A DNA stretch of 64,000 nucleotides from a virus (taxonomy: Duplodnaviria; Caudoviricetes), in the IMG/VR virus record IMGVR_UViG_3300028591_000072, positions 224,001-288,000 of that record. One strand, written 5' to 3'. Below the pieces are notes generated by a model. That model did no database searches, was not told where the DNA came from, and saw only the letters and a list, made by a program, of their open reading frames with translations. Shown here piece by piece: positions 7,201 to 49,393 of the stretch. The position numbers and the translations under genes were made by a program. The stretch's first letter is position 1. Each line of letters begins with the position of its first letter.

Positions 7201-10200
7201 CTTAAAAATTCAAATCCAATATCATTGTTTAAAACAATTGAAGGTTGGAATGACCCTGACGGATGGAAATCAACATTCGAATCAAGATATCCCGACCCTG
7301 ATGATGAGGGCGTTGCTGGTAAAAGACAAGTTGATGGGTCGGTTGGGTCACCATTATATGAACTTTGCAAATGGCTTGTTTCTACAAGGCATGAAAGCGA
7401 TACTGTATATGGCGATACATTAGATATTGATTCAAGTTTTGCAACAAGGATTAATGGATATCAATATGCATATGTTACAGGACAAGAGCAAAATTATGAA
7501 TATGCAAGTGGCGTAAATTTGCCTGATAATGCTGAAAACAGGCAAAAGAAATTTGAAACGGAAAAGTGGGAACACTTTGATGTGTGGAAACTCGCCGGAT
7601 ATTACATTTATCTTATGAGATATGGAGCTGTTGACCAATTTGTAAAAAACACGATGTTATTTACTGACGGAAACGGAAGATACGACAATAGGACTGATAA
7701 AAAATATAGAAAATGGTTCTACATAAATTATGATAACGACTGTTTGTTTGGACTTCGTAACAACGGAGAACTTGCATTTCATTGGAAACTTGATAGGCAG
7801 ACGATTGACAATGCAAATGATATTATTGTTGATGAAAATGATGAATACAATGAAGGCAATGTTAATACATATGCAATGATGGGTCATGATTCAACATTAT
7901 GGAATAATCTTGAACGTGACGATGAATTTATGCGCATGGTAAGGGACCTTGATGATTCAATGAACAAATCTGGCCTTAATTATGAAAATATGGTAACTGA
8001 ATTTGATACCAAACAGACTGAGATGTGGTGCGAGCGTATTTATAATGCAAATGAAAGATATAAATATATTCAAGCAGCAAAGGGTGTTGGAGATATGGCT
8101 GGAAATCCTGTTGATAACTTGTGGATGCTTCAAGGAACAAGACGTTCTCACAGACATTGGTGGATTGCAAACCATTTTAACATGCTTGATGCAAGGTGGC
8201 TTTCTGGTGACTATAAAAACACGTATGTCCAAATTAAAACAGACTCTCCTGCGGGCTCAATAATAAGGGCAGTTGCCGGTGATGACTATTATTTTGCATG
8301 GGGACAACAAAAGAGAATTTACGAGAGTAATATTCAAAAGGAAAAAGGTGAAGAAATTGAATTTGTGTTTCCGACAGACCAAGTTCAAGGAGACCCTGTT
8401 TACATTTATGCGTATAATAAGATGTCAGAACTTGATTTTTCAGCAATAGCAAACAAAATTGCCGCTGGTTCATTTGAATTCAATGAAGGTGGCCTTGAGG
8501 TGGTTAATACGTTGAAAAAACTTGTTATTGGAAATCAAAATGTAATAAATAGAATTGAACTTCCAACAACAACATGGGGAAAACTAAAGAACCTTGAATA
8601 TCTTGATATAACAAATTATGCGGGTATAAAAGAAATTCCGTTTGATACGACAATTGAGACTGAAAACGGAGAAATCACTCACTTAAGCCTTCCTAATTTG
8701 CATACGTTGAAGGCTTTTGGAAGTGGATTGTCAAGTTTTGTTCCTGTTGAGGGTAGCAATTTTAATTTGGCCGAATTACCGGCTTCTGTTTCAACTATAA
8801 AATTAAATAATGTTAATTTCAATAATATAACTGAAGATTTTAAATACGTACCAACAACAAATTTGACAACTCTTGAGATTTCAAATACAAATGGTATAAA
8901 AATGGCTTATTTTAGAAAGATTGTTGAACCTTGGCTTAATGCAATGAACTCTTCTATAAGTTCAGATGCCTTATATGCATCTGCAAAGTTGGTGTTGAAT
9001 AATGTTGACTGGTCGTTTGATAAATTTAGTGACATTGAATTATTTGAAAATATAAGTAAAGTAAATGGTGCATTTGTTATTAGTGGTGTAATTGATTTGT
9101 CAACACTTAAATCAATATCCATGGAAAATATTGAGAAAATAAAGCAGATATTTGGTGAAAATTGCTTTAATAAGGTAATGTCTGCAATTTATATAAAAGT
9201 TCCGGAAACTGTATTTATACATACTGATAGTGATTCAATGGTTGCAGGTAAAACAAATGTTTTTTATAGGGAAATATATCCTGCCGAAAATGCAATAACA
9301 ATGGACCACTCAATAGTATACAATATTGTTGAAGAGTGTTCTGAAACAACGCCAGGCGCAATACATGATACAATAACCAACAAATATTATATTATTGTTT
9401 CAGATATATCAAGCATAAGACAAGGTACAATTACGTTTGAAAATCTTCGTGACGAAAATAACAAAGAAATTGCAGTTCTGACTTCTGAAGAGAATGAAAT
9501 TTCTGATACTGATTTAAAGATAATGTGTACACTTTCTATGGGAGGTGTATCGAAAGTTTCTGTGTGTGATTTTAAAATCAAAAAGCCAACATATGCATCT
9601 TCCGTTGTGATTACAGGAAATAAGTCAATTTATAAGAATGGGGAATATGTTTATGAGGCTGTACTTAAGGATAATTTGGGTAATGCTCCAATTGGAACTG
9701 AAAATGTGACTTGGACGCTTTCAATGAATAATGCAGAAAGGTATCTTGTTTCATATGAAAATGTTGATGAAAACGGAATTAGGTATAAAATAGTTACTTC
9801 AGAAAATGAGCCAAATGAAGAAGAGGTTTCTGAAACAATAAATTTAAGTATCATTGTGGAACATGGTAATGGAAGAAATCCATTAATTGCATCATATGTT
9901 TGCATGCTTTTAAATGAAAATGTTATTATGACAAGCGTTTCTAATCCAATTATGATGGAAAGATGCTATAATGCATTTGATTCCGTAATTAATAGGAATG
10001 CAATGACAAAAGCGCAAGCAGAGTCTGTTACTGATGATGACATAGACGGAGTGTTTTCCGGTATTGCTTCTGAATTCACATTTAATGAATTTAAATATTT
10101 TACTGGAATAACAAGACTTCCTTCTGGCGCATTTGGTGATTGTAGGAGAATGACTGAAATTACGTTACCAAGTACAATTGTTGAAATTGGTCCTTCTGCA

Positions 10201-12483
10201 TTTTCAAATTGTCAAAGACTTACTAAAATATCAACAGGAAACGATGAATATACTTTACCAAATATTAATATAATAAACGAGAGGACATTTATCGGTTGTG
10301 AATACCTTAAGAAACTTAAGTTACCAAACACAATTAAGGAAATAAAGGATTTTTCATTCGGAGGCACTGGATTTAGAAAGGTTCTTTTAAGTACAGAAGA
10401 ACTTAATGATGAAGTACTTTTATTACCTTCTGAAATAGAAATTATACGTGGCAATGCATTTGAAACATCAAATTGGTCGGCAAATGGAAGTAATAATAAA
10501 TTAACCGTATTTTCAATACCTTCTACATTGAGTTTGTCATCAAATGAAAATGTTGTTAGGGGGCGTTATTATACCGAGTATATTTCAGAACCCGGAAATA
10601 TGAATTACATTACCGATGATGGCGTTTTATATACGACAAACAACGGTTATGACAAGTATGAACTTGTTAAATATCCGGCTGCAAAGAATGAAAACTTTGT
10701 TGAAACAATTACAATGAATGGTATAAGGACTTTTTATAATTATGCATTTTTATATTGCGGAAATATTGGAACTGTTGTTATACCAAATACGATTTTGAAC
10801 TATAATATTGGTAGCCATTGTTTTGAAAAATCCACTGTTAGAATCATTGATGCCAGAGATGCACAATTCCTTAGCAGTATACCTGATTATTGCTTCTATG
10901 ACTGCTTGTCGCTTACCGATGTATTTATGCCGATAGAACCAAATATAAGAGAAATAGGGGCATATGCGTTCTATAATTGTCCTTCGCTTACAGGACTTAC
11001 ATTGCCTGACGGAATCGAAAAACTTGGATATTATGAGGTTAGCGGAAGAAAAGAGGGAAATAATTTCTATAATTGCGGATTTCATGAATTATTATTGCCT
11101 GATACAATTAAAACATATGGAAGGCATTGTATTACAAATTGCCAAAACATTGAATATCTTAAACTTGGTAAATACATGGTTTTAACAGGTGATGAGTTTG
11201 TGACAAATTGTAAAAACTTGTCTGAAGTTGTGTTGCCAATCTTTTCATATTATTCATTTGTTTCATATGAGGTTTATGATTCAGAAGGAACATTTATTGC
11301 AGTATATGACAATGAAGAAATTGCGTTGGCAGAACAAGAAAATTATCCTGGTGGTGAAATAAGAACTGTGTATGGAGAGAATATCGTTAATAATACAAAT
11401 ATGGATTATAGGTTCATAATTGGATGCGTTAATTTAATGAAGTTTTCAATTGCTGATGGCGATAATTCTCTTGTTGGCTGTATATATGACAATGCGTTGT
11501 ACAATGTTGTAAACAATACATTAATAAAGGTTCCTTTTGGCGTTTATGGTATTGAAATAATGCCTAATACAACCGCAATTGGTCCTGGTGCATTTATGGA
11601 TTGTTCAAGAATTCTTGAAGTTACATTAATGGAAACAATTAATTCAATTGGAAATGATTCATTTAATGGATGCTCTTCAATTTCATTGTTTAAAATAATA
11701 GATGGGATTAATACAATACCGGATAGATGCTTTAGGAATTGTTCAAATTTAAGGACTTTGTTTGTTAGTAAGGATGTAAATACAATTTCATTTGCTGCGT
11801 TTGCTGGCTGTACAAAACTTTCTGAAATTTATTTCTTTAGGGAAAATGCATGTAATTTAAGATGTAATGCAATTGGCTTTGATTATCACCCATTTGGTTC
11901 ATCTAATTCAGAATATGCTGGATATGAATATAGAAATAATGGAACAAATAAATTATACATTTCCTATAATGCAAATGGATATGATAATCCTGGTACTGGT
12001 GAAGGTTCCGTTAAAGATAACAGATGGGTGGGAAATCCTATTACAAACACTTCAATGTGTGGGTACTCATATGAACCAATGAAAATTAATTCAACGTTTG
12101 TCATTAAAATTTATGATGAAACTAATGAGTTGGTTACAAATAATGTTTATGCTGTAAGCCAAAGTATGAACTTTATATCCGAAGGCGTTTATGTCTCTGT
12201 TTCTGACGGGCATGTTTTTGCTGCACTTGGCGGTGAAAATGAAACATTATACCATGGGGAAATTTTAGAAATATATTCAGACCCTGAACACGTAAATAAG
12301 ATTGGTGAAATCAATATGGATTATAACACGAAAAAATATCAGATTGGCGAACCTTCATACGGAAGCCGTATGTTGAAGTCTGAAAATCCATCAGAAGATG
12401 ATACAGTTGTTATTAGTAAAAATGAATATAATAATATTATATCTAATATAGAACTTTTGAATAAAATTATATTTGGTAAATAA
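4261..12483 (+). CDS. Giant virion/tail protein with LamG-like region, CotH-kinase-like core and BspA-type leucine-rich repeats
   Basis: Likely start MAKTYNQ at 4261. Motifs QGTSSLGYPRKNFK, KADYMESS, GQYNFVNDK, YDNDCLFG. C-terminal repeats of the form AFxxCxxLxxIxLPxxIxxIG. Confidence 0.7.
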   Translation: MAKTYNQKINRNTAWGGDMSTSGLPVAGGRVQEFIKEELNGKAGAFYRPSGGNFVYCFATKEDRDTYADASNKDEYEHLIIDRFETESNYSVYINQDTLVLSKSVIEGSTGNTVEFQFKITDKNGMVSDSKASIVFTFLASGILKKYTTEVQVKSEGWTTVVSDVIDEYLRNGENNISVTITGLSTKTSTQFVMTYNVFDLEFKTMFQYNVPKYGSVLQVPYYIKCTETKYLEFYIDGYEVESVESQTISDAVKDGTANISIGNLEIGQHSLQVRAYVRAKDGTKFYSQIHYYTFAKEGNTTPSFLMSIKLDNTQDIAVDGNLLTINSGQFEQISFDWSMYDYLSRKLVVNFEYDGNIISKNVFTLNGTISEFSFRPFNYGDDKYLRIFSVDEDNNIVFEHNIVFNVAGNDSGLKETVDGLLLKLTSNGRRNTDEDKDVWSCVGNDQNVYSANFHNFAWNAQQGWNPEYEALVVSDQAYVDFNIRPMMTNNGINNAGWEENGGTFEIDLETFDIEDENAVICECKSNIEGKSTAYFRITATNAEFSTADGKKINTRYKDNERLKIAFIGNKKGTHEDGNMIYIMVNGVLERAAMYSNTDRIWSDEILRIGSGNGGCKIRVRSIRVYDRAISVDEEFNNYVVDSENSQIIYEKNNIFKKGTNEVGFDEVANKLPVMIFTGNMNDLVKNGQDKQWRYFDVEYINRQEPERNFVSFNCQMKLQGTSSLGYPRKNFKLKTKDKLATKEYYESSNYVLDTEETEVGNRRLRSKVTGNLIDFGDFTGNCFTFGNFSSDNPLKGELLKKGKYRFRANSHKADKWTLKADYMESSCSHNVGAGRSWNDIFENTELKISNYAGYVNNTYKDTALVNRNDYSEYTKNGISYKINMNTDSFRSQKNYVCRTDAQKICWSEGADDVRTAIDGFPMVCFYRTSHAENNLVFMGQYNFVNDKGSYEVFGFEDIEDPNNEDVMIYDASQVECWEGLKNSNPISLFKTIEGWNDPDGWKSTFESRYPDPDDEGVAGKRQVDGSVGSPLYELCKWLVSTRHESDTVYGDTLDIDSSFATRINGYQYAYVTGQEQNYEYASGVNLPDNAENRQKKFETEKWEHFDVWKLAGYYIYLMRYGAVDQFVKNTMLFTDGNGRYDNRTDKKYRKWFYINYDNDCLFGLRNNGELAFHWKLDRQTIDNANDIIVDENDEYNEGNVNTYAMMGHDSTLWNNLERDDEFMRMVRDLDDSMNKSGLNYENMVTEFDTKQTEMWCERIYNANERYKYIQAAKGVGDMAGNPVDNLWMLQGTRRSHRHWWIANHFNMLDARWLSGDYKNTYVQIKTDSPAGSIIRAVAGDDYYFAWGQQKRIYESNIQKEKGEEIEFVFPTDQVQGDPVYIYAYNKMSELDFSAIANKIAAGSFEFNEGGLEVVNTLKKLVIGNQNVINRIELPTTTWGKLKNLEYLDITNYAGIKEIPFDTTIETENGEITHLSLPNLHTLKAFGSGLSSFVPVEGSNFNLAELPASVSTIKLNNVNFNNITEDFKYVPTTNLTTLEISNTNGIKMAYFRKIVEPWLNAMNSSISSDALYASAKLVLNNVDWSFDKFSDIELFENISKVNGAFVISGVIDLSTLKSISMENIEKIKQIFGENCFNKVMSAIYIKVPETVFIHTDSDSMVAGKTNVFYREIYPAENAITMDHSIVYNIVEECSETTPGAIHDTITNKYYIIVSDISSIRQGTITFENLRDENNKEIAVLTSEENEISDTDLKIMCTLSMGGVSKVSVCDFKIKKPTYASSVVITGNKSIYKNGEYVYEAVLKDNLGNAPIGTENVTWTLSMNNAERYLVSYENVDENGIRYKIVTSENEPNEEEVSETINLSIIVEHGNGRNPLIASYVCMLLNENVIMTSVSNPIMMERCYNAFDSVINRNAMTKAQAESVTDDDIDGVFSGIASEFTFNEFKYFTGITRLPSGAFGDCRRMTEITLPSTIVEIGPSAFSNCQRLTKISTGNDEYTLPNINIINERTFIGCEYLKKLKLPNTIKEIKDFSFGGTGFRKVLLSTEELNDEVLLLPSEIEIIRGNAFETSNWSANGSNNKLTVFSIPSTLSLSSNENVVRGRYYTEYISEPGNMNYITDDGVLYTTNNGYDKYELVKYPAAKNENFVETITMNGIRTFYNYAFLYCGNIGTVVIPNTILNYNIGSHCFEKSTVRIIDARDAQFLSSIPDYCFYDCLSLTDVFMPIEPNIREIGAYAFYNCPSLTGLTLPDGIEKLGYYEVSGRKEGNNFYNCGFHELLLPDTIKTYGRHCITNCQNIEYLKLGKYMVLTGDEFVTNCKNLSEVVLPIFSYYSFVSYEVYDSEGTFIAVYDNEEIALAEQENYPGGEIRTVYGENIVNNTNMDYRFIIGCVNLMKFSIADGDNSLVGCIYDNALYNVVNNTLIKVPFGVYGIEIMPNTTAIGPGAFMDCSRILEVTLMETINSIGNDSFNGCSSISLFKIIDGINTIPDRCFRNCSNLRTLFVSKDVNTISFAAFAGCTKLSEIYFFRENACNLRCNAIGFDYHPFGSSNSEYAGYEYRNNGTNKLYISYNANGYDNPGTGEGSVKDNRWVGNPITNTSMCGYSYEPMKINSTFVIKIYDETNELVTNNVYAVSQSMNFISEGVYVSVSDGHVFAALGGENETLYHGEILEIYSDPEHVNKIGEINMDYNTKKYQIGEPSYGSRMLKSENPSEDDTVVISKNEYNNIISNIELLNKIIFGK

Positions 12484-12532
12484 AATATTTGAAAAAAAAT
12501 AACTATTTATTATTATAAAAAAAAACTATAAT

Positions 12533-14038
12533 ATGGCAAGGAAAAATCAAAAATTAATAAATTATCATGGTAGTGGTAATACGCCTGATAATTTGCTATC
12601 ACAGATAGATTATGGTGAAATTGCTGTTAAGCATTCTACTGGTAATACTGCCCAGTTAATTATTAAGACTTCAGACGAAACAAGTGCTATTTTTGTTGAA
12701 AGTGCTGCTGTTGTTAGTATGATTGATTCAAGCATTTCTAGCGTTGCTGGAAATGTTGTTGAAATCGCAAAAAGTTTGTCGGCAGTAAGTTCAACGACTG
12801 TTGCGACAGAGGCTGGCTTAGAAGAACTTAAAGGCTATTATAGTGCGTTTACATCAGATGTTACTACTAACTTATCAGGCTCTGTGTCAGCACTTAGTGC
12901 TTCTGTCGTTAATAATTATTGGACTTCAGCGACAACGCAAGGAAAACTTGATGCAATAACTAGTCAAACACAGACTTTAACAACTAATTTACAAAACTTA
13001 TCAGGTGCTGTTTCAGCATTTAGTGCTACAGTTGTTGCTGATTACACGACTCATGCTGAAGCAAGCGGCATGCGTGATACTGCAATAACGAGTGCACAAA
13101 GTTACACTGATACTATTAGTGGATATATTGTAACTGATTTGCATGAGCACTATTGGACTTCAGCCACAACGCAAGAGAAACTTAATGCAATAACTAGTAA
13201 TACTGAGTCTTTAACGACTAATTTACAAAACTTATCAGGCGCTGTTTCAGCATTTAGTGCTAGTGTTGTTTCAATGAGCGCTGATGTTAAGACTTATATA
13301 GATGATAAACTTTCTGTTGTCTATAAATTCAAAGGAAGCGTTGATAATTATGCTGATTTGGCTAATATATCACAGCCTGAGAATGGAGATGTTTATAATG
13401 TTGTAAACGCAAATGGCACAATTGGTCAGCCTGGATATACGCCAGCTGGAACTAATTATGCATGGAATGAAACAGGAAGCACGTGGGATGCTCTTGGAGG
13501 CACTATTGACCTTAGTAGTTATGTGACACAAGACGAGTTAGATGGAGTTACTGGTAATGTTGAAACAATAACACAAGATTTAGGTAATTTATATACTTAT
13601 TTTAGTGGATTTAGTGGCTCTATCGTTTCCGGCTATACGACTCATGCTGAGGCAAGTGGAATGCGTGACACTGCAATAACGAGTGCGCAAAGTTATACTA
13701 ATACTGTTAGCGGTGATATTTCTAATTATTTGTATAATAATTATTGGAATTCAGCGACAACACAAGAGAACCTTAATGCAATAAATAGTCAAACAGAGAC
13801 TTTAACATCTAATTTACAAAACTTATCGGGTGCTGTTTCTGCATTTAGTGCTAACGTTGTTACTGATATAGTTCCTAAGGTTAATTCAGCTTTACAGGGC
13901 TTTGGGTTCACTGGTGATGGAGTAACTCAAGGAACCGGAAATCAAACTTTACAAAGTGGTGCAAAGGCTGATTATACAACTGGCGGTACGGCAACACTTG
14001 ACTTAACTGAATTGATTATTGATTGTGGAGATTGGTAA
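12533..14038 (+). CDS. Fibre-like virion protein with internal repeats
   Basis: N-terminal YGEIAV motif; 3x YWxSATTQxxLxAI..LQNLSGAVSAFSA and 2x YTTHAEASGMRDTAITSAQSYT; ends IDCGDW. Confidence 0.65.
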   Translation: MARKNQKLINYHGSGNTPDNLLSQIDYGEIAVKHSTGNTAQLIIKTSDETSAIFVESAAVVSMIDSSISSVAGNVVEIAKSLSAVSSTTVATEAGLEELKGYYSAFTSDVTTNLSGSVSALSASVVNNYWTSATTQGKLDAITSQTQTLTTNLQNLSGAVSAFSATVVADYTTHAEASGMRDTAITSAQSYTDTISGYIVTDLHEHYWTSATTQEKLNAITSNTESLTTNLQNLSGAVSAFSASVVSMSADVKTYIDDKLSVVYKFKGSVDNYADLANISQPENGDVYNVVNANGTIGQPGYTPAGTNYAWNETGSTWDALGGTIDLSSYVTQDELDGVTGNVETITQDLGNLYTYFSGFSGSIVSGYTTHAEASGMRDTAITSAQSYTNTVSGDISNYLYNNYWNSATTQENLNAINSQTETLTSNLQNLSGAVSAFSANVVTDIVPKVNSALQGFGFTGDGVTQGTGNQTLQSGAKADYTTGGTATLDLTELIIDCGDW

Positions 14039-34950: not shown

Positions 34951-36048
34951 GTGTCAAAAATATCTTACTTTAATCAAGTAACTCCTTGGAAAAGAGTGCT
35001 TAATGCGGCAAGAAGAACAATAGGGAAGGCTCCGTTAGATAAGGAGCCTTCAGATTCTTGGAAAGCAAAAATGCTTCTTGCTGAACATAGCCCAATTAGA
35101 CTTCTTGAATTTGATTGGGTTTGGGATGACATCCAGCAATGGATTACAACACACTTAGTAAGACACCATGAAGGATGCGAAAAGTTTGTTCATTCACAAA
35201 GACAAGACAGACGTGAACTTGGCTGCTCACGTGATGAATTGCCACAAGGTGCTTTAAATGATATGGGAATGTCTGCTAATGCGCAAGCATTGATTAATAT
35301 TTCAAGAAAAAGATTATGTTCTTGCGCATCAAAAGAAACTAGAGAGGCTTGGAAACAGGTTGTAGAAAAAATAAGAGAAATTGACCCTGTATTAGCAGAT
35401 AAGATGGTTTGTGAATGTTTGTACAGAAGTTTCTGCCCAGAATGGATGAATTCGTGTGGCTACGTAAATACCCCACAATATCAGCTTGCAAGAGTTAGAT
35501 ATTTAAGAACCGATTATAATGACCAATGGACTCCAATTAAAGGATATGAAGGCTTATACGAAATATCTAGATTTGGAATTGTAAGAAGTATAGAAAGAGT
35601 TGTTCCTGATGGCGAAAATCGTTCAAAAACAATTCACGGAAAAGAGATAGCAATCATTCCAAATAAAAACAGAAGAGGATATTGTTATGTTCATTTGTTT
35701 AAAGAAGGAAAAGAAAAGAGTTGTTTATTGCACAGACTTGTAGCTGAAACATTTATCCAAAATCCTGATAACAAACCAGAAGTAAACCATATAGACGGCA
35801 ATAAATATAATAACCAGGTATCAAATCTTGAATGGGTTACTTCGGAAGAGAATAAACAACATGCGTGGAAAAATAAACTTTGCAATGCAGAACATAGAAA
35901 AACTAAAATAAAATGTATTCAAAATGGAGTTGTTTATAATTCTGTAGTTGAATGCTCTAAATTGCTTAACGTTGACAGAAGAAGTATTTTTAGACAATTA
36001 AAAGGAGAAAAAGAGTATGTTAAAGGATATTCGTTTGAAAGAGTTTGA
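34951..36048 (+). CDS. thyX: ThyX-like flavin-dependent thymidylate synthase fused in frame to a NUMOD4-HNH homing endonuclease
   Basis: EHSP, HLVRH..HSQR, RLC..A..ETR; then WTPIKGYEGLYEISRFG (NUMOD4), HRLVAETFI..VNHIDGNKYNN..NLEW (HNH) and a NUMOD1-like tail. Confidence 0.8.
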   Translation: MSKISYFNQVTPWKRVLNAARRTIGKAPLDKEPSDSWKAKMLLAEHSPIRLLEFDWVWDDIQQWITTHLVRHHEGCEKFVHSQRQDRRELGCSRDELPQGALNDMGMSANAQALINISRKRLCSCASKETREAWKQVVEKIREIDPVLADKMVCECLYRSFCPEWMNSCGYVNTPQYQLARVRYLRTDYNDQWTPIKGYEGLYEISRFGIVRSIERVVPDGENRSKTIHGKEIAIIPNKNRRGYCYVHLFKEGKEKSCLLHRLVAETFIQNPDNKPEVNHIDGNKYNNQVSNLEWVTSEENKQHAWKNKLCNAEHRKTKIKCIQNGVVYNSVVECSKLLNVDRRSIFRQLKGEKEYVKGYSFERV

Positions 36049-38876: not shown

Positions 38877-39033
38877 GGTGCTCTGGCAGATATGGTATAT
38901 GCACTGGACTGAATACAGAGTAAACTGTAAATCAAACTCTATAGTAATTCAGTTGGTAGAAACGTGAGTCGGTGGTTCGAGTCCGCCCTATAGAGCAAAT
39001 CCAGCTAAAGTGGTTCGAGTCCACTGGGCACCA
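38877..39033 (+). tRNA. tRNA-Phe(GAA) with 84-nt anticodon-loop intron (~38914-38997) containing a nested tRNA-like domain
   Basis: Removing the insert gives CTGGA-CTGAAAA-TCCAG; acceptor GGTGCTC/GGGCACC. Confidence 0.8.
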
Positions 39034-39124
39034 CAACTAAAATAACTAAATTGGTACAGATTAAAAAATAAAATTAAACGACAATGATAAAACGAAAGTA
39101 CATAAAACGAAAACATTTAAGTAG

Positions 39125-39197
39125 GCGCTCTTAGCTTAATTGGTAGAGCTACACACTCTTAATGTGGGGGTTGTGGGTTCGATTCCCACAGGGCGCA
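39125..39197 (+). tRNA. tRNA-Lys(CTT)
   Basis: CACA-CTCTTAA-TGTG. Confidence 0.9.
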
Positions 39198-39215
39198 CGA
39201 AAATAAAAACAAGAT

Positions 39216-39293
39216 GCGCTCGTAGCTCAGTTGGTAGATAGCACCACACTTTTAATGTGGGAGTCCTGGGTTCGAGTCCCAGCGGGCGCACCA
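39216..39293 (+). tRNA. tRNA-Lys(TTT), encoded CCA
   Basis: CCACA-CTTTTAA-TGTGG. Confidence 0.9.
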
Positions 39294-39296
39294 AAA

Positions 39297-39368
39297 GCCC
39301 CAATGGTGTAACGGATAGCACTAAAGTCCACGGAACTTTTAGTGAGGGTTCAAATCCTTCTTGGGGTA
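39297..39368 (+). tRNA. tRNA-Arg(ACG) with C33
   Basis: AAAGT-CCACGGA-ACTTT. Confidence 0.8.
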
Positions 39369-39429
39369 CAAAAATCTGGCACGGTTTTTGATAATGTGCA
39401 ATGGTTCTTTGAAAAAATGAAAAAAAATT

Positions 39430-39947
39430 CATTGTGCATAGGCGGGAAACCCCTATGTAGAATCTCCTAAATTCGGTGGAAATCCTTTGGTGTGCTGGTT
39501 AAACTCCAGCCTTGTAGAAATACAAGAAGAGATTTGTCTGACTAGAAAGCACTAACCAATAATGTGTAAGGACTATACCGAGCGAAAATAAGATGTAAGG
39601 GTTGAATAAACAGGTCGGCACTTTAATATGTAGAACAGAAAGAGTGAATTACATCCACAGAAACTTACTATAAACTTATAATCGTGTAGACTGAAATGGG
39701 AGATACCTAAGTTGATTTTAGCCTCATAGGAGTAATATTCGAGTAGGGAGTATAAACAGGCACTATGTCTGTCTCACTGAAAGAAGGCTATCTTGCAAGA
39801 TTTCAATATGGTAATGTCAGTTAAGACTACAACAAGCATTTAGCTCCTTGGTTCGACTCCAAGGGATGCCTGTCACGTGTTGGAAAAGGTGTCATAAGTG
39901 GGTTCCACTTGTTTGGCTATGGTAACATAGTGTGGTAAATATCAATG
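39430..39947 (+). ncRNA. Free-standing group I ribozyme-like RNA, copy 1
   Basis: P2 hairpin, P3 tctcc/ggaga, P4 ttcggt/accgag, P5 tcctt/aagga, P7 gactg/cagtt, ctatggtaacatag hairpin; no host gene visible. Confidence 0.7.
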
Positions 39948-39959
39948 TAATTTATATAT

Positions 39960-40034
39960 GGCCCCGTAGCTCAATTGGATAGTAGCGACAGCCTTCTAAG
40001 CTGTAGGTTCTGGGTTCGACTCCCAGCGGGGTCA
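39960..40034 (+). tRNA. tRNA-Arg(TCT)
   Basis: ACAGC-CTTCTAA-GCTGT. Confidence 0.92.
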
Positions 40035-40072
40035 CAAATTTAGTTCTTTGAAAAAATTGAAAAATACAAATT

Positions 40073-40673
40073 CATTGTGCATAGGCGGGAAACCCCTATG
40101 TAGAATCTCCTAAATTCGGTGGAAATCCTTTACCTAGATATGAAAAGAAGTAGGAAAATTCATCCTAAGTTTCATTAATTTGAAATAGGTTCCGCAACAC
40201 TAACAAATAATGTGTAAGGACTATACCGAGCGAAAATGAGAATAGAATGAAAAGCAAGTACAAGCAGAAGCAATTGCCTCCTTGTAGACTTCTTTATTTC
40301 TTTATATGATACTTATTGGTGGCAATTCGTAAGTATCATTTATTCTTATAAACGTGTAGAGACTGAACGGGAGATGCCTAAGTTGGAATTATATTAAGAC
40401 GATGATAGCCCAGGATTCAAAAGAGCACCCATAATGAATGGGAGGTGGTTGGTATGAAATCCAACAATTCGTTGATAATATTACTTGCAAGAATTTCAAT
40501 ATGGTAATGTCAGTCAAGACCACAATAAATAAACATACATGTCTAATGGTGAAGACAAGCGACTTGAAAAGAAAGGCTGATGTCCGAGAGGAGACGCAAA
40601 TGTGGCATTGATGTGGGTTCGATTCCCACTATGTTTGTTCGGCTATGGTAACATAGTGTGGTAAATATCAATG
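40073..40673 (+). ncRNA. Free-standing group I ribozyme-like RNA, copy 2, with two tRNA-like inserts
   Basis: Same core as copy 1 (P7 gagactg/cagtc); tRNA-like cassettes at ~40398-40474 and ~40531-40637. Confidence 0.7.
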
Positions 40674-40686
40674 TAATTTATATATT

Positions 40687-40859
40687 ACTCCTATAGTTCA
40701 AGGGATAGAACGGAAGTTTCCTATACAAGAGTAAACTTGTTAAAATCAAAACTTCATGTTGGTGAAGATGGTCACACGTGCGTTAAAATGTCTACACGAT
40801 GGTTCGAGTCCATCACATGAAGCAAACTTCTAATCTTGGTTCGAGTCCAAGTAGGAGTA
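40687..40859 (+). tRNA. tRNA-Arg(CCT) with 101-nt anticodon-loop intron (~40723-40823) containing a nested tRNA-like domain
   Basis: Removal gives GAAGT-TTCCTAA-ACTTC; acceptor ACTCCTA/TAGGAGT. Confidence 0.82.
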
Positions 40860-40913
40860 CAAAAAAAAATAACCAGATGAAAATTCTGGCACGGTCTTTG
40901 ATAATATTGCAAT

Positions 40914-40984
40914 GGTGATGTAGTCTAACGGTAGAACGGGGCTCTCATAAGGCCCATACGGAAGTTCAACTCTTCCCATCGCCA
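40914..40984 (+). tRNA. tRNA with CAT anticodon (Met or Ile2)
   Basis: GGGCT-CTCATAA-GGCCC. Confidence 0.85.
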
Positions 40985-41295
40985 CAAAACTTTGGCACGA
41001 TTTTTGATAAGGAATGACTGCTGAGAAAAAATTTTGCAAAATATATTTGTTTTTTTCAAAAAAAAACTATATATTAGCAACATCAAAAGTTCTTTAAAAT
41101 AATGGTCAGGCAAGTCCAGGCAGCGTTTGGGTTGAGGTCGAAAAACTCCCCACCTTATATAGGTGTAATAATCCAGGTAGCTCAGACACAGAGATTAAAA
41201 AGGTGTTACTGACCATTAAAGTTCTTTGACATATTGTGAAATCTGATAAAATACAAAAAATAAGGTTGTCTGTAGAGATACACACAACCTATTAC

Positions 41296-41383
41296 GGAGG
41301 GGTGCCGAAGTGGTCATAACGGCCTAGACTTGAAATCTTGTGTGCTCTTTACGGGCCCGTGGGTTCGAATCCCACCCCCTCCG
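41296..41383 (+). tRNA. tRNA-Ser(TGA)
   Basis: CTTGAAA loop, long variable arm, G73. Confidence 0.9.
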
Positions 41384-41400
41384 CAGTTGTAATTGAAATT

Positions 41401-41522
41401 TGGGATGTGGTGTAATGGTAGCACACGTAGCACTTTATGATTTCAGACACGGAATTTTACAGCAATTATTTTAGCGATGAATTTGGGTTTCCGTGGTTTT
41501 GGTTCGATTCCAGACATCCCGA
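41401..41522 (+). tRNA. tRNA-Pro(TGG) carrying a 51-nt ACAGCAA-module insertion (41428-41478)
   Basis: Removal gives CG|GAA-TTTGGGT-TTCCG. Confidence 0.7.
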
Positions 41523-41532
41523 CTAATATGAT

Positions 41533-41616
41533 GGCCAAGTGTCGTAATTGGTAACCGAGCTGGTCTCAAAAACCAGTGGGCGAAAGCCCGTGTGGGTTCG
41601 AGTCCCACCTTGGCTA
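41533..41616 (+). tRNA. tRNA-Leu(CAA)
   Basis: CTGGT-CTCAAAA-ACCAG, variable arm GGGC-GAAA-GCCC. Confidence 0.92.
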
Positions 41617-41658
41617 CAATGGTTAAAAACCAAATAATAATTAAATTAAAAATAAATT

Positions 41659-42273
41659 ATGAAGAGAATTTTATCAGTATTAATGATTGCTTTGATGGCA
41701 ATTTCTTTGACATCTTGCGATTGGTTTAAAAAGAAAAACGACAATAAGAAAGAGATTGTTGTTGAAAATTTGGTTTCGGAAGATACCAAGTACATGGTAG
41801 AAAATTATGACACATGTTTTGTTTATTACGAGACACAAATTGTTTTAAATAACTATCTTGATGAGGAATGTGATGGTTCATTTGAAAGTGTAACAAATAT
41901 ATTCCAAGGATATACACTTGTTGATAGCACGTTCCAACCTACAGTAGTTATTTTTGAACACATTGGAGATTCGTCAAGCATTGAAAAGGTTAATGATGCA
42001 TGGATGGAAGATATGGTAATGAAAAAAAATGACATTGCCATTTCATATAAGGATGCATTCAAATGTATGAACGAAGTAAATTATCCAAAACCACACGCAA
42101 AGGCTTGTACTTTGAGAAAAGAAGTAGGACCTTGCCAAGCAAACGCCCAATATATTTTTGGTAACGTTGAATCACAATTGTATGTTGATGCAATAACAGG
42201 CGATGTTTCACCAAATAGTCCAACATTCAGTTGTCTTGGCGCTGAAGAAAATGTTGAAGAAGTGGTCGAATAA
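41659..42273 (+). CDS. Lipoprotein
   Basis: Signal peptide II ending LTS-C. Confidence 0.8.
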   Translation: MKRILSVLMIALMAISLTSCDWFKKKNDNKKEIVVENLVSEDTKYMVENYDTCFVYYETQIVLNNYLDEECDGSFESVTNIFQGYTLVDSTFQPTVVIFEHIGDSSSIEKVNDAWMEDMVMKKNDIAISYKDAFKCMNEVNYPKPHAKACTLRKEVGPCQANAQYIFGNVESQLYVDAITGDVSPNSPTFSCLGAEENVEEVVE

Positions 42274-42292
42274 TGATTAAGAAATAAAAGTA

Positions 42293-42359
42293 GAAAACCT
42301 AACAGCAATTTTTAGTAAAAAATCAGAACTTTCACTTCCGACAATAACTAATGGTTTTC
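42293..42359 (+). ncRNA. ACAGCAA-module RNA carrying a Glu(TTC)-like anticodon arm
   Basis: GAAAACC/GGTTTTC stem, TAACAGCAA, TCAGAA-CTTTCAC-TTCCGA. Confidence 0.65.
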
Positions 42360-42427
42360 GTTTTTAATAAAAGGTGACACTTTTAGGATTTTTTGCACAC
42401 CGATAGACAAGGTAAAAATCCAAGTAA

Positions 42428-42580
42428 GCCTCTTTAGTATAAAGGTTATTACACTTGACTTGTACATCAGAAGGAACTGATTAAAACCAAGCTATATTTG
42501 AAAGACAAAGCATATGCTGAAACAGCGATAGTTTCATATAGCTCAATCATGAGATGGCAGTTCGATTCTGCCAAGAGGCT
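42428..42580 (+). tRNA. tRNA-Thr(TGT) with 81-nt anticodon-loop intron (~42464-42544)
   Basis: Removal gives CTTGA-CTTGTAA-TCATG; acceptor GCCTCTT/AAGAGGC. Confidence 0.8.
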
Positions 42581-42704
42581 CTAAAATCTTCGAGGGATTG
42601 ATGCTTGGTTTAGTGTTTTGGTTACCTGACGAGGTAAACTGAGACAATAATAAGGAGTAAGAAGGAAGCATGCACTTGGCTTACTGTGTAGAAGATTTTT
42701 TAAT

Positions 42705-43279: not shown

Positions 43280-43366
43280 AGGAAACATGCAGCAATCTTT
43301 CTCAGGTTGAAAATTTTGACTGTAAATCAAATAAGGTGGTTCGAGTCCACAAAAATATTGTTTCCT
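43280..43366 (+). ncRNA. ACAGCAA-module variant (GCAGCAA) carrying a Tyr(GTA) anticodon arm and T-arm
   Basis: AGGAAACA/TGTTTCCT stem; TTTGA-CTGTAAA-TCAAA; GTGG-TTCGAGT-CCAC. Confidence 0.7.
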
Positions 43367-43453: not shown

Positions 43454-43585
43454 AGAAATCTAACAGCAATTAATAAATTCGTTTGACTGTAAATCAAAAG
43501 GTTGTGGGTTCGAGTCCCGCTGTCGCCAAAGATTATATTAGTTGAAGGCGACATAGCTCAATGGTAGAGAAAGAAAATGATTTCT
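43454..43585 (+). ncRNA. Circularly permuted tRNA-Tyr(GTA) closed by the ACAGCAA module
   Basis: 3' half (43480-43528) precedes 5' half (43547-43569); terminal stem AGAAATC/GATTTCT. Confidence 0.8.
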
Positions 43586-43782
43586 GAGAAAAACAATGAC
43601 GCTTAACCGTCAGAACATGTTTCTAAATTCATTAAAGATTTAGCGCACTTGTAGAGCGATAGGACTACACCTAAACCGAGGTGAGTGGTGAAGTACCGAG
43701 GAAGCTTTATTTGAAAGGTTACGAGCTCTTAAACAGATGATGGCATAGTTAAGAAGGTGCCATAAACATTTCTTTTTAATAT

Positions 43783-43855
43783 GGGGGTATGGTTGAATGG
43801 CTACAATGCGGGCTTGTCACGCCCTGTGGTGCGGGTTCGAATCCCGTTATCCCCG
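43783..43855 (+). tRNA. tRNA-Asp(GTC)
   Basis: GGGC-TTGTCAC-GCCC, G73. Confidence 0.9.
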
Positions 43856-43934
43856 CAATATTGGGGTTTCGAAAAAAAACGATAAAATTGCGTATAATTT
43901 GGCTTTCGAAACTATTTATAATAAAACAAAGTTT

Positions 43935-44654
43935 ATGTGTGATGGTTTAAATTTTAAATGTAAACAGTGTGGCGTAACATTTGAAAAAACAAAGTCTGAG
44001 TTATCAAAAAACCATAATGTTGTTCCTGTCTTTTGTTCTAAAGACTGTCAACAAAAATGGTATAAAGAAAATTCGTATATAACTGTAGAATGCAAATGTT
44101 GTGGAAAAGAATTTACAATAAAAAAAGGTGAATACAATAAAAATAAAAACAAAAACTTTTTTTGTTCACATTCTTGTGCTGCTAAATTTAATAATAAAAC
44201 TAGAACAATAAAAAAAACTGTTTTTGAAAAAGATAACAAAATTAAAATATCTAAAAAGAAAGAAGATATATATGGTGTATGTCCAATTTGCGGAAATAAA
44301 AAATTTAAGAAATCAATATTGTGCAAAAAATGTAGAAACGAGCAAAAAAGAAATAACATAAAAAAGAGAACACTTGGATATTTTATTGAAGGAAAAAAAT
44401 ATTTGGGTTCAAAATGTAATGAAATAAGAAAAGACGCAAAGAGAACAATTGAAGAAAGCTGTGTCGAAAAAACTTGTGCATATTGTCATAACCACGAGTT
44501 TGATGGCATATTAGAAGTACATCATATAAAAGGAATTTTGGAGTTTGATAAAAGCACGACAATAGAAGAAATAAATGATATTAATAACCTTGTTTGGTTA
44601 TGTCCAAATCATCACAGGATGCTTGAACTTGGATTAATTAAACTTGAAAAATAG
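43935..44654 (+). CDS. HNH endonuclease with Cys-rich N-terminal repeats
   Basis: CxxC..FCSxxC repeats; EVHHIK..NLVWLCPNHH; start moved to Met47 because the listed start overlaps tRNA-Asp. Confidence 0.85.
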   Translation: MCDGLNFKCKQCGVTFEKTKSELSKNHNVVPVFCSKDCQQKWYKENSYITVECKCCGKEFTIKKGEYNKNKNKNFFCSHSCAAKFNNKTRTIKKTVFEKDNKIKISKKKEDIYGVCPICGNKKFKKSILCKKCRNEQKRNNIKKRTLGYFIEGKKYLGSKCNEIRKDAKRTIEESCVEKTCAYCHNHEFDGILEVHHIKGILEFDKSTTIEEINDINNLVWLCPNHHRMLELGLIKLEK

Positions 44655-44660
44655 ATTAAA

Positions 44661-44789
44661 AGGAATTTAACAGCAAGTTACAATAGGTAAACACATTTGT
44701 AAACAAAACAAAGATTGTTGGTTCGAGTCCAACTGCGGCTTTAGGGGAACCGATGGCTGCATAGTGAAATGGAAGATAAATAGATTCCT
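44661..44789 (+). ncRNA. Circularly permuted Cys-like tRNA (ACA loop) closed by the ACAGCAA module
   Basis: AGGAATT/GATTCCT stem; TGCGGCT-T precedes GGCTGCA; break in the D-loop. Confidence 0.7.
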
Positions 44790-44919
44790 GTAATCTAAAA
44801 AATATAAGGAAAGAAGGACACACGTACCTTAAACAAGTACGAAAAGTTAGTGCTGGCCACATAAAGTCGCCAAGCGTCTCAGGGTGGATGCACGATAGTG
44901 AAATGTAAATTTCTTAGAT

Positions 44920-44992
44920 GGGGAGTTCATTTAGCGGTTTAGGATGCAGGTTCGACAGACCTGTCACTATGGTTCGATTCCATAACACCCCA
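44920..44992 (+). tRNA. Atypical tRNA, GAC anticodon (Val?) with C33
   Basis: CAGGT-TCGACAG-ACCTG; one A-A mismatch in the acceptor. Confidence 0.6.
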
Positions 44993-44997
44993 CAATC

Positions 44998-45225
44998 GGT
45001 TTGTTGTTGATAATCAAAGGAAAGTTGAGTTGGACATGGGTTCGAGTCCCATATGGTCCACTAAGTAATTGATTTTCAAGTAAATACGGGCCATCTTGGT
45101 TTTGACAGCTAATGAGTACAATGGAAGTAGACATCCGAGATGCCATAAAATAACTGGCAACGAAAATTATGCTTATGCTTATGCAGCAGCCTAAGGCAGT
45201 GCATTGAGCAGGTTGGCAGCGAACC
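44998..45225 (+). ncRNA. ssrA: Permuted (two-piece) tmRNA
   Basis: T-arm and ATGGTCC-A (to 45060) precede GGGCCAT-CTTGGTTTTGAC (45088); G3-U70 pair; tag GNENYAYAYAAA* at 45156-45194 after ATAACT. Confidence 0.9.
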
Positions 45226-45239
45226 AAATCGCTGCACAT

Positions 45240-45315
45240 GGTCGGTTCGTCTAGTCTGGCCTAGGACATCAGGTTTTCATCCTGGGAATCATGGGTTCAA
45301 ATCCCATACCGACTA
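45240..45315 (+). tRNA. tRNA-Glu(TTC)
   Basis: TCAGG-TTTTCAT-CCTGG. Confidence 0.9.
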
Positions 45316-46042: not shown

Positions 46043-46167
46043 GCCAAGGTAGCTCAGTGGTTTAGAGCAATGGGAGTGTATAAATGATTTTTGATTAAAA
46101 ATCTAACAGCAACTTCCAAATACCTATGTAAACCCATTGGTCGGAGGTTCGAATCCTTCTCTTGGCT
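46043..46167 (+). tRNA. tRNA (GTA or TGT depending on junction) with a 51-nt ACAGCAA-module insertion (~46075-46125)
   Basis: GCCAAGG/TCTTGGC acceptor, ATGGG/CCCAT anticodon stem; insert contains GATTTTT-GATT-AAAAATC-TAACAGCAA. Confidence 0.7.
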
Positions 46168-46175
46168 CAAAAAAT

Positions 46176-46257: not shown

Positions 46258-46331
46258 GGAAAACATACAGCAAGTTTTATCAAATTCAAGTTACAATCTT
46301 TTAAATTGTGGGACTAAATTTTTTGTTTTCC
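46258..46331 (+). ncRNA. ACAGCAA-module RNA carrying a Lys(TTT) anticodon arm
   Basis: GGAAAACA/TGTTTTCC stem, TACAGCAA, ACAAT-CTTTTAA-ATTGT. Confidence 0.7.
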
Positions 46332-47138: not shown

Positions 47139-47196
47139 CGCTAATTTCGACTTTACTTTTTCACCCTTTTTACTATTTATGTATAAAAGTGGTTTT

Positions 47197-47871
47197 ATGA
47201 AAGAAAAAGAAATAGATAAAATAAGCGTGGAACAAATAAACGAAGCTTTTGAAAAGTGTGGTAATCTTAAAGAAGTTGTTTTTTATTTTGGAAAAAAATA
47301 CAATGGCGGAAGTCAACGATTTGTATATGCTTTAATGGAAAAAGCCGGAATAAAGTATTCTGATTTTTTCAAAAAAGGGAAAGAGTATTATAAAAAAAAT
47401 GTAAAGTATTGTGAAAATTGTGGAAAAGAATTGCCATATGAAAAAAGGAATAATAAATTTTGTTCTTCTTCTTGTGCAGCATCTAAAAACAATCTTGGGG
47501 TAAGAAGAAACTTTAATCCAAATAAACCAATAATACAAACAAAAGAAGAAAAAGAAAGACTGAAGTTGGAAAGATGGAAGAATGGAGAAAATTTTTTAGT
47601 TGGCTCTTGTGAAATACCAGTTTTTATAAGAAGATATTTGTTCAGTAAAAACGAATGTAAATGTGAGCGATGTGGGTGGGGTGAAATAAATGAGGACACA
47701 GGAAAAATTCCGTTGCAAATACATCACATAGATGGTGATTGCACAAACAACAAAGAAGAAAATTTACAACTACTTTGTCCAAATTGTCATAGTTTGACTA
47801 ACACATTTGGTTCGTTGAACAAAAAGTCAAAAAGATTCCATAGAAAAAAGAAAACTTTAAAAGATATATAG
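47197..47871 (+). CDS. HNH endonuclease
   Basis: CERCG..LQIHHIDGD..NN...NLQLLCPNCH. Confidence 0.9.
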   Translation: MKEKEIDKISVEQINEAFEKCGNLKEVVFYFGKKYNGGSQRFVYALMEKAGIKYSDFFKKGKEYYKKNVKYCENCGKELPYEKRNNKFCSSSCAASKNNLGVRRNFNPNKPIIQTKEEKERLKLERWKNGENFLVGSCEIPVFIRRYLFSKNECKCERCGWGEINEDTGKIPLQIHHIDGDCTNNKEENLQLLCPNCHSLTNTFGSLNKKSKRFHRKKKTLKDI

Positions 47872-48457: not shown

Positions 48458-49393
48458 ATGTCAAATAATAAATTAAAGCAGCGTTTTGTAAAAGATTACA
48501 ATCTTCCAATCAATGTGTTTGATGAAGAATTGTTTAATTATTATATGAATTTGTATCATTTTTTTCCTAAGGAAAAGTGGGAAAATTTGAAAAAAGACAT
48601 ACAAGACAAATATCGTGGGAATGTTGAAGTATGGCTTGAGTATTGCGCTGAAGTTAGGGATAAGGCCATTAATGGCGTTATGGAAACTCAAGAATATAAA
48701 GAGTTCAACAACAGTGATTTATCAAAATATAAATTAACGAAAAATATTGGAGAGCATAGTTATTATACCAATGAAACAAATGGGTGCAGGTTTGTGTCAA
48801 TTGATTTGAAGAAGGCAAATTTCCAAGCCCTTAAATACGTTGGTGTTATCGGCGATAAGACATATGGTGATTTTATTGAGCGTTTTGATGGAAGCGATTA
48901 CATTAAAGACAGCAAATATTTGAGACAGGTGATTTTTGGTAAGATGAATCCTGGCAGAATTATTACCATAGAAAAATATATTATGGAAAAAATAATGTCA
49001 ATTGCCGATGAGGTTTTACCTCCTGAGTTTAAATTATATTCTCAAAACAGCGATGAACTTGTATATAAACAGACAGGAAGTTTTTATGGTGACATAAGAA
49101 TTATATGCGCTGTTATTGAAAAAATGGTTCTTGATAATTTTGGTGTTGAGGTACGTGCTGAATATGTTGAGGTTACAAAACTTCCAATTGTTAATTGCAA
49201 TGGTAATAATGTTGATGCTTTTGTCCGTAAGAACATTAATACGGGAGAAGAGGTTCTGAAAAAGGCATCAACAACATTTTATCCGCAGATTTACAAATTA
49301 TGGAAAGGAATGGAAATTGAAGATAGAGACCTTGTTTTCTATTTCGAGGACCAATTATGTAGATTTAATAATCCTTTAAAATTGATTGAATAA
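48458..49393 (+). CDS. Hypothetical protein with polymerase-palm-like motifs
   Basis: FVSIDLKKANF and NSDELVY. Confidence 0.5.
   Translation: MSNNKLKQRFVKDYNLPINVFDEELFNYYMNLYHFFPKEKWENLKKDIQDKYRGNVEVWLEYCAEVRDKAINGVMETQEYKEFNNSDLSKYKLTKNIGEHSYYTNETNGCRFVSIDLKKANFQALKYVGVIGDKTYGDFIERFDGSDYIKDSKYLRQVIFGKMNPGRIITIEKYIMEKIMSIADEVLPPEFKLYSQNSDELVYKQTGSFYGDIRIICAVIEKMVLDNFGVEVRAEYVEVTKLPIVNCNGNNVDAFVRKNINTGEEVLKKASTTFYPQIYKLWKGMEIEDRDLVFYFEDQLCRFNNPLKLIE

What the first reader, a model, noticed from the sequence alone, without database searches (positions are those of the whole stretch)
38877..42580. Distinct class of small anticodon-loop tRNA introns (Phe, Arg-CCT, Thr-TGT) with a shared architecture
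Seen: three inserts (84, 101 and 81 nt) lie at or just 3' of the anticodon. All read: hairpin with a 6-nt purine-rich loop (ACAG-AGTAAA-CTGT; ACAAG-AGTAAA-CTTGT; ATCAG-AAGGAA-CTGAT), then AAATCAAA or AAACCAA, then a long closing stem (CTCTATAG/CTATAGAG; CTTCATGT/ACATGAAG; GCTATAT/ATATAGC), then C|AA into the 3' exon. They are too short for group I/II cores, have no terminal G, and show no obvious bulge-helix-bulge. No uninterrupted Phe, Arg(CCT) or Thr(TGT) gene is in the window, which suggests real splicing. Inference: a protein-assisted (nuclease plus RtcB-type ligase) or new ribozyme intron class that could also hide anticodons until needed. tRNA introns have been predicted in gut megaphages, but I know no family with this consensus.
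Basis: partly seen in the sequence, partly recalled or inferred. Interest (0 to 1): 0.88.

Follow-up and report, generated by a model that had tools for sequence, protein, structure and literature searches.

The report
Two-part tRNA-shaped introns in phage tRNAs
Three tRNA genes of a sheep-gut jumbo phage are each split in the anticodon loop by a mobile 81-101-base insert made of a small hairpin signal plus a miniature tRNA; it belongs to the still unexplained intron family first seen in Lak megaphages, and its ends appear to be set by its own shape, which suggests a testable way of cutting it out.

Summary
Each insert is: W-Y-A start, hairpin with an ARNRAA loop, A-rich linker, tRNA-like domain (8-bp acceptor, T arm, D-loop GG, dispensable anticodon arm), terminal C. 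All four 'enigmatic' Lak introns (Devoto 2019) share this layout (Phe intron 71% identical), so this is a new member of a reported but undefined family. I found 25 introns in 10 anticodons; all 16 modelled pairs covary. Intron-less orthologues exist for all three genes. The intron, not the exon, fixes the ends: sites are 35/36 or 36/37, and the published Lak 'Tyr' intron gene is really Asn. Not group I, group II or BHB. The 5' module also stands alone upstream of genes in other phages. Best reading (about 0.4): an RNase Z-type 3' cut, a hairpin-directed 5' cut and an ATP-dependent RNA ligase. Splicing is not shown; RNA data were inconclusive; no ligase was found in this 82%-complete genome. 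This scan reported leaderless tRNA-shaped introns on other DNA before.

The parts
38877..38912 (+). tRNA-Phe(GAA) 5' exon (ends at position 35)
   Evidence: the spliced product is 75/75 identical to an intact gene in L160
38913..38996 (+). Phe intron, 84 nt, site 35/36 (38914-38997 is sequence-equivalent)
   Evidence: CM 82.6 bits (training member); 71% identical to the Lak Phe intron
38914..38936 (+). 5' module of the Phe intron: 5-bp hairpin with AGTAAA loop (38914-38929) and A-rich linker (38930-38936)
38937..38996 (+). Nested tRNA mimic: 8-bp acceptor, D-like arm, no anticodon arm, canonical T arm, terminal C
38997..39034 (+). tRNA-Phe 3' exon
40687..40722 (+). tRNA-Arg(CCT) 5' exon
   Evidence: intact orthologue in L395, 97% identical
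40723..40823 (+). Arg intron, 101 nt, site 36/37: hairpin 40725-40740, linker 40741-40751, nested tRNA 40752-40823 with a decayed anticodon arm
   Evidence: 76% identical to the intron in tRNA-Trp of L161
40824..40860 (+). tRNA-Arg(CCT) 3' exon
42428..42463 (+). tRNA-Thr(TGT) 5' exon
   Evidence: intact orthologue in L395, 89% identical, anticodon arm identical
42464..42544 (+). Thr intron, 81 nt, site 36/37: hairpin 42466-42481, linker 42482-42489, nested mimic 42490-42544 with a degenerate T loop and no D-loop GG
   Evidence: 76% identical to the L152 Thr intron, with compensatory T-stem changes
42545..42581 (+). tRNA-Thr(TGT) 3' exon

Best explanation
These are mobile, protein-spliced tRNA introns that carry their own two boundary signals. 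SHOWN (sequence comparison): two-part architecture under pairing selection; precise presence/absence; ends fixed relative to the intron's own structure and independent of exon sequence; spread among tRNA isotypes. INFERRED: (1) in the precursor the exons close the anticodon stem and hold both splice sites together; (2) an elbow-reading RNase Z-type nuclease (host) cuts after the single unpaired C that follows the 13-bp acceptor-T stack, leaving a 5'-phosphate on the 3' exon; (3) an endonuclease directed by the hairpin and A-rich linker cuts 1-3 nt upstream of the hairpin, leaving a 3'-OH on the 5' exon (host RNase E/G is a candidate: +1 is A/U in 24/24, +2 is U in 22 and C in 2); (4) an ATP-dependent RNA ligase (PF09414 type, phage-coded where found) joins the exons. 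RNase P alone cannot define the 5' end, because the nested tRNA starts 23-31 nt downstream of it. Odds: spliced at all about 0.8; by proteins about 0.6; by this set of enzymes and end chemistry about 0.4.
For: Covariation: 94% of cells paired, 16/16 pairs with two-sided changes, 0/500 shuffles as high, slid controls 24-40%; hairpin 83/88, acceptor 175/176, T stem 108/110. Acceptor, T loop and D-loop GG (20/22) are kept while the middle varies from 15 to 60 nt; RNase Z reads the elbow and acceptor-T arm (10.1101/2024.04.04.588063). Fixed ends: Lak-C1 intact Thr gives an unambiguous T...C insert at 36/37; the intron-less allele of the Lak 'Tyr' gene reads GTT (Asn), which only the 35/36 reading gives; 7 of 7 informative Tyr/Asn genes get the anticodon that matches their variable arm and base 73. 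Exon junction bases vary (a Pro member has G on both sides). RNase E prefers U at +2 and accepts some C (PMC5222698). B. thetaiotaomicron gives matches to the RNase Z and RNase E/G models in the control lists. PF09414 ligases lie inside the tRNA arrays of two carriers (about 2 and 5 kb from the nearest intron) and in Lak genomes. Exons stay functional: two intron-bearing Phe alleles differ by a compensatory anticodon-stem change.
Against: No spliced junction was seen; RNA contigs cross the Phe and Thr inserts unspliced and the joint table was truncated. No RNA ligase was found in this record or in two partial genomes of its clade. By elbow-based tRNA numbering the terminal C is position 74, so RNase Z would have to treat an 8-bp stem as the acceptor (own knowledge: done for tRNA-Sec, not for tRNA-His). 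The +2 U is often paired at the hairpin base and +3 is A, not U, so the RNase E match is weak and may reflect common descent. Thr introns have degenerate T loops. RNase P could cut inside the intron; the effect is unknown. Sequences are related, so shuffle counts are not probabilities.
Confidence: 0.42

Rival explanations
1. A dedicated (probably phage) endonuclease reads hairpin and tRNA mimic, cuts both sites leaving cyclic phosphate and 5'-OH ends, and host RtcB ligates.
For: One enzyme would explain exact ends on both sides; host-type RtcB rings in B. thetaiotaomicron (control); it needs no phage ligase, and none was found in this clade.
Against: No EndA-like or RNase Z-like gene in 7 carrier records; no candidate nuclease identified; ATP-dependent ligases sit in carrier tRNA arrays.
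Confidence: 0.18
2. The intron is a compact new ribozyme: conserved loop and linker adenines and the terminal C dock on the tRNA-like scaffold and catalyse cleavage or full splicing.
For: About ten unpaired bases are nearly invariant; the 5' module occurs alone in 16 viral contigs, with 0 hits for the reversed pattern and 0 in GTDB; theta ribozymes are a precedent for ribozyme-based tRNA processing in gut phages (PMC10879173); no protein common to all carriers was found.
Against: 74-118 nt, no guide pairing with exons, stems freely variable, and the conserved shape is the one that tRNA-processing proteins read; the sister class lacks the 5' module altogether (earlier scan notes, unchecked).
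Confidence: 0.15
3. Not spliced: selfish or decoy inserts that inactivate dispensable phage tRNA genes, the nested mimic being the useful product.
For: Only unspliced RNA contigs were seen; phage tRNAs can be dispensable; Lak-A1 also has an intact Asn gene.
Against: All 25 inserts lie at 35/36 or 36/37 with intact exons in 10 anticodons; compensatory exon changes between intron-bearing alleles; the first intron base varies freely where the mature tRNA needs A37; the nested anticodon arm, the part a decoy would need, is what decays.
Confidence: 0.17
4. The two very abundant exon-less group I-like RNAs of this cluster splice the inserts in trans.
For: They lie beside the introns and reach depth up to about 10,000-12,900 against 13-75 nearby in RNA runs; homologues occur in two other carriers.
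Against: No convincing homologue in complete Lak genomes or in G008, whose array carries a Phe intron; no U-G at the 5' site, no terminal G.
Confidence: 0.03

Closest known systems
'Enigmatic' tRNA introns of Lak megaphages (Devoto et al. 2019, PMC6784885, Fig. 4, Table S6); echoed in PMC13037316
   Same: Same family: all four Lak introns parse into hairpin, linker, nested acceptor/T arm and terminal C; Phe intron 71% identical with an identical hairpin; presence/absence between strains.
   Different: The paper gives sequences, no Rfam hit, and notes a nested tRNA for Thr only.
Leaderless tRNA-shaped introns noted earlier in this scan (AI notes, unchecked; e.g. e1-5481721, e1-1968979)
   Same: tRNA mimic nested in the anticodon loop of large-phage tRNAs; trimming enzymes plus ligase proposed.
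   Different: Those run from the inner tRNA's first base to a CCA-like tail, so RNase P could set the 5' end. Here a 23-31-nt hairpin leader precedes the mimic and the intron stops at one C.
Group I introns in bacterial tRNA anticodon loops (own knowledge)
   Same: Anticodon-loop position, mobility.
   Different: No P3-P7 core, terminal C not G, no U-G pair or guide sequence, 74-118 nt.
Archaeal/eukaryal BHB introns (EndA/TSEN plus RtcB or Trl1; own knowledge)
   Same: Short, probably cut-cut-ligate by proteins.
   Different: No BHB (0 of 28 form the 4-bp central helix); the site is set by the intron rather than the exon or junction; no PF01974 in carriers.
Theta ribozymes (PMC10879173)
   Same: Small RNA elements that process tRNA in Bacteroidota gut phages; carriers are enriched in RNA ligase genes.
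   Different: HDV-like double pseudoknot at tRNA 3' ends, one cut, no splicing; no such fold or Rfam match here.

Membership tests
Lak-type tRNA introns (Devoto 2019) | Short non-coding insert in the anticodon loop of a large-phage tRNA, no Rfam match | tested here: met
Lak-type tRNA introns (Devoto 2019) | Sequence/structure homology to the published introns | tested here: met
   blastn 69.8% over about 130 nt, E 1e-4; 71% global identity; same parse
Lak-type tRNA introns (Devoto 2019) | Precise presence/absence among relatives | tested here: met
   L160, L043/G008, L395, L375
Lak-type tRNA introns (Devoto 2019) | Removal from the RNA in vivo (not shown for Lak either) | tested here: inconclusive
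   contigs only, joint table truncated
Group I intron | Catalytic core P3-P7 and terminal G | tested here: not met
   81-101 nt, terminal C in 24/24, no Rfam group I hit
Group I intron | U-G pair at the 5' site in an exon-pairing P1 | tested here: not met
   last exon base T 16, A 5, C 1, G in one more member; no consistent exon-linker pairing
Group II intron | GUGYG start, AY end, domain V | tested here: not met
   starts W-Y-A, ends C; no Rfam hit
BHB (EndA) intron | Bulge-helix-bulge at the junction | tested here: not met
   central helix 0-3 of 4 pairs in all 28; relaxed forms not exhaustively tested
RNase P + RNase Z excised tRNA-shaped intron (proposed in scan notes) | 5' splice site coincides with the first base of the nested tRNA | tested here: not met
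   nested tRNA starts 23-31 nt downstream
RNase P + RNase Z excised tRNA-shaped intron (proposed in scan notes) | 3' splice site one unpaired base after the acceptor stem | tested here: met
   8-bp stem plus C in all members; enzyme action not tested
Self-cleaving/self-splicing ribozyme | Protein-free activity | not testable with these tools
   needs in vitro transcription

The most novel reading that the evidence does not exclude
The 74-118-nt intron (or its 25-nt 5' module, which also stands alone upstream of phage genes) is catalytic RNA: a new ribozyme class using a tRNA-shaped scaffold, and the smallest known splicing RNA.
Probability: 0.15. Interest if true: 0.95.

Novelty: new member of a known kind. 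Interest (0 to 1): 0.7.

Why it matters
How phage tRNA introns are removed has been open since 2019, in cells with no known protein-based tRNA splicing. The consensus, the covariance model and the exact boundary rule make this directly testable with 150-nt transcripts and three purified enzymes. Either outcome would be new: splicing assembled from ordinary RNA-processing nucleases plus a ligase, or a new ribozyme. The rule also changes annotation: the split position decides the anticodon, so published Tyr calls are Asn and ARAGORN mislabels all three genes here (Cys, Gly, Glu). The 'kind' is known only as unexplained sequences; I found no description of the architecture or boundary rule in the papers I could search.

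Tried and rejected
Uniform 36/37 exon-ruler model: rejected by Tyr/Asn identity elements and by the intact GTT allele. Uniform 37/38: rejected (it would put U at 37 in Thr, Lys and Phe members). Exon-linker guide pairing: fits Phe only. RNA evidence: four runs laid, contigs only, dominated by the group I-like RNAs; nothing can be concluded. Ligase or nuclease search in this record: PF01139, PF09511, PF09414, TIGR02308, PF13671, PF01974, PF12706, TIGR02651, PF10150 and a custom ligase HMM were all negative; the two Rnl1 models rang in no control, and about 18% of the genome is missing. Conserved ORF 48458-49393 as a ligase: rejected; it has a polymerase-type palm fold and relatives carry it without an adjacent tRNA array. 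Covariation in stand-alone modules: 3 of 60 fully paired against 0.94 expected, p about 0.06, inconclusive. Host chromosomal copies: one GTDB hit, a contig resembling this phage's tRNA array binned with a Bacteroidales MAG. Literature searches for the motif or a later description gave nothing. One search used a mistyped structure (off by one column) and is superseded. The parser required a terminal C and mis-registered one member by one base (fixed); searches had no such requirement.
Full report
SOURCE. The window lies in a 302,581-bp linear virus record, 82% complete, held in sheep, goat and cattle gut runs. Bacteroidota-type promoter words precede the tRNA array, and a related contig is binned with a Bacteroidales MAG, so the host is probably a rumen Bacteroidales (inference).

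OBSERVATION. The three inserts are as described. Their removal gives normal Phe(GAA), Arg(CCT) and Thr(TGT) genes, of which the record has no intact copy. ACA is among the frequent codons of this genome (28.6 per 1000). Rfam has no matching intron family.

ANATOMY. The 'closing stem' is the acceptor stem of a tRNA mimic stacked on a T arm. Layout: W-Y-A start, 3-6-bp hairpin with loop consensus ARNRAA, linker with consensus AAAYYAA, 8-bp acceptor, variable middle (15-60 nt, D-loop GG in 20/22, anticodon arm absent, decayed or complete), T arm, one C. On 24 aligned introns, 94% of cells pair and all 16 pairs show two-sided changes; no shuffle or slid register comes close. The sequences are related, so these are not p-values.

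FAMILY. The Phe insert matches Lak phages. Table S6 of Devoto et al. lists four introns, all with this layout. Pattern and model searches gave 25 distinct introns in Phe, Tyr, Asn, Thr, Lys, Gly, Trp, Pro and two Arg genes of gut jumbo phages. In this record the model's three best matches (44-83 bits) are the three inserts; the next scores 30 bits and is an ordinary tRNA.

MOBILITY. L160 has an intact Phe gene identical to the spliced product but an intron in Tyr, where this phage is intact. Intact Arg(CCT) and Thr(TGT) orthologues occur in L395. The Phe site holds a different intron in L043. Closely related introns sit in different isotypes: Tyr/Phe 91%, Phe/Trp 85%, this Arg intron/Trp 76%. 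The route of movement is unknown; HNH genes lie in the array, so homing is plausible but untested.

BOUNDARY RULE. Read at 36/37, six genes with a short variable loop and G73 would carry a Tyr anticodon, and one long-arm A73 gene an Asn anticodon. If the intron ends at the C after the nested stem, all seven switch to the identity their bodies predict (about five lineages). The intron-less allele of the Lak 'Tyr' gene reads GTT with otherwise identical exons, and Lak-C1 fixes the Thr insert at 36/37. So the sites are 35/36 or 36/37, set by the intron. Exon junction bases are free, there is no BHB and no guide pairing. The 5' site lies 1-3 nt before the hairpin and 6-8 nt before its loop, but 23-31 nt before the nested tRNA, so RNase P cannot set it.

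THE 5' MODULE ALONE. The 21-base Phe-type module matched 18 viral contigs, 16 of them outside tRNA introns, mostly 5-60 nt upstream of a start codon and often 6-9 nt behind another stem, at one or two copies per record. The reversed pattern has 0 hits and GTDB has 0. Fourteen of 19 copies keep TA or AT just before the hairpin, as introns do. Many come from related phages and covariation was inconclusive. This is a lead that the module is an autonomous processing signal, not proof.

MECHANISM. RNase Z reads the elbow and acceptor-T arm (10.1101/2024.04.04.588063), the parts conserved here, and cuts after the discriminator base leaving a 5'-phosphate (own knowledge). RNase E cuts two bases before a U (PMC5222698) and leaves a 3'-OH (own knowledge); intron position +2 is U in 22/24. 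These ends suit an ATP-dependent ligase; PF09414 genes lie within the tRNA arrays of G006 and G007 and in Lak, while RtcB, EndA and RNase Z are absent from the carrier records searched. Against: no ligase in this clade's sampled DNA, a one-base uncertainty in the RNase Z register, and no spliced RNA seen. I put this route at 0.42, nuclease plus RtcB at 0.18, unspliced at 0.17, ribozyme at 0.15, and trans-splicing by the neighbouring group I-like RNAs at 0.03.

NOVELTY. The elements are new members of a set reported in 2019 and mentioned again in 2026 but never defined or explained in the literature I could search. Earlier notes of this scan describe a leaderless sister class; none of those shown describes the hairpin leader, the stand-alone module or the Asn/Tyr boundary test. 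Verdict: real, family-level known, mechanism open and now testable; interest 0.70.

Noticed in passing
window 41401-41523, 42290-42360, 43280-43366, 43454-43590, 44660-44790, 46043-46168, 46258-46331: A second family: a 6-8-bp stem followed by TA-ACAGCAA, found in 51-nt inserts of two tRNA genes, at the start of apparently circularly permuted tRNAs (3' half before 5' half) and around tRNA fragments. Its upstream context resembles that of the stand-alone hairpin modules.
   Followed up: no
window 39430-39900 and 40070-40680: Two exon-less group I-like RNAs, several hundred times deeper than their neighbours in RNA runs of two studies; homologues in G006 and G007, not in Lak.
   Followed up: partly
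window 48458-49393: Conserved 311-aa phage protein of no known family (708 relatives) with a confident polymerase-type palm fold (pLDDT 94.7; best Z 9.4, rmsd 5.0 over 160 residues, to B-family polymerases), usually followed by a metallophosphoesterase and an HD-domain gene.
   Followed up: partly
window 44971-45285: Permuted (two-piece) tmRNA encoded by the phage.
   Followed up: no
window 43797-44654, 47179-47871, 34951-36048: HNH endonuclease ORFs inside the tRNA array; a Thy1 fragment in one ORF with NUMOD4/HNH domains.
   Followed up: no
L001:16351-16515 versus L224 and L149: The Lak gene published as intron-containing tRNA-Tyr(GTA) is tRNA-Asn(GTT).
   Followed up: yes
L266 (G010:70146-70236, minus strand): Family variant in tRNA-Pro(TGG) with a 7-nt hairpin loop and G37 as the first 3' exon base.
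   Followed up: partly
L017, upstream of 2243 (minus strand): A stand-alone module sits directly behind a T-arm-like hairpin, similar to the position of theta ribozymes behind tRNAs.
   Followed up: no
L226:1393-2061, L227:1390-2061, L228:1393-2055: A 220-223-aa stand-alone RNA ligase domain next to tRNA genes in three jumbo phages, with no convincing solved relative.
   Followed up: partly
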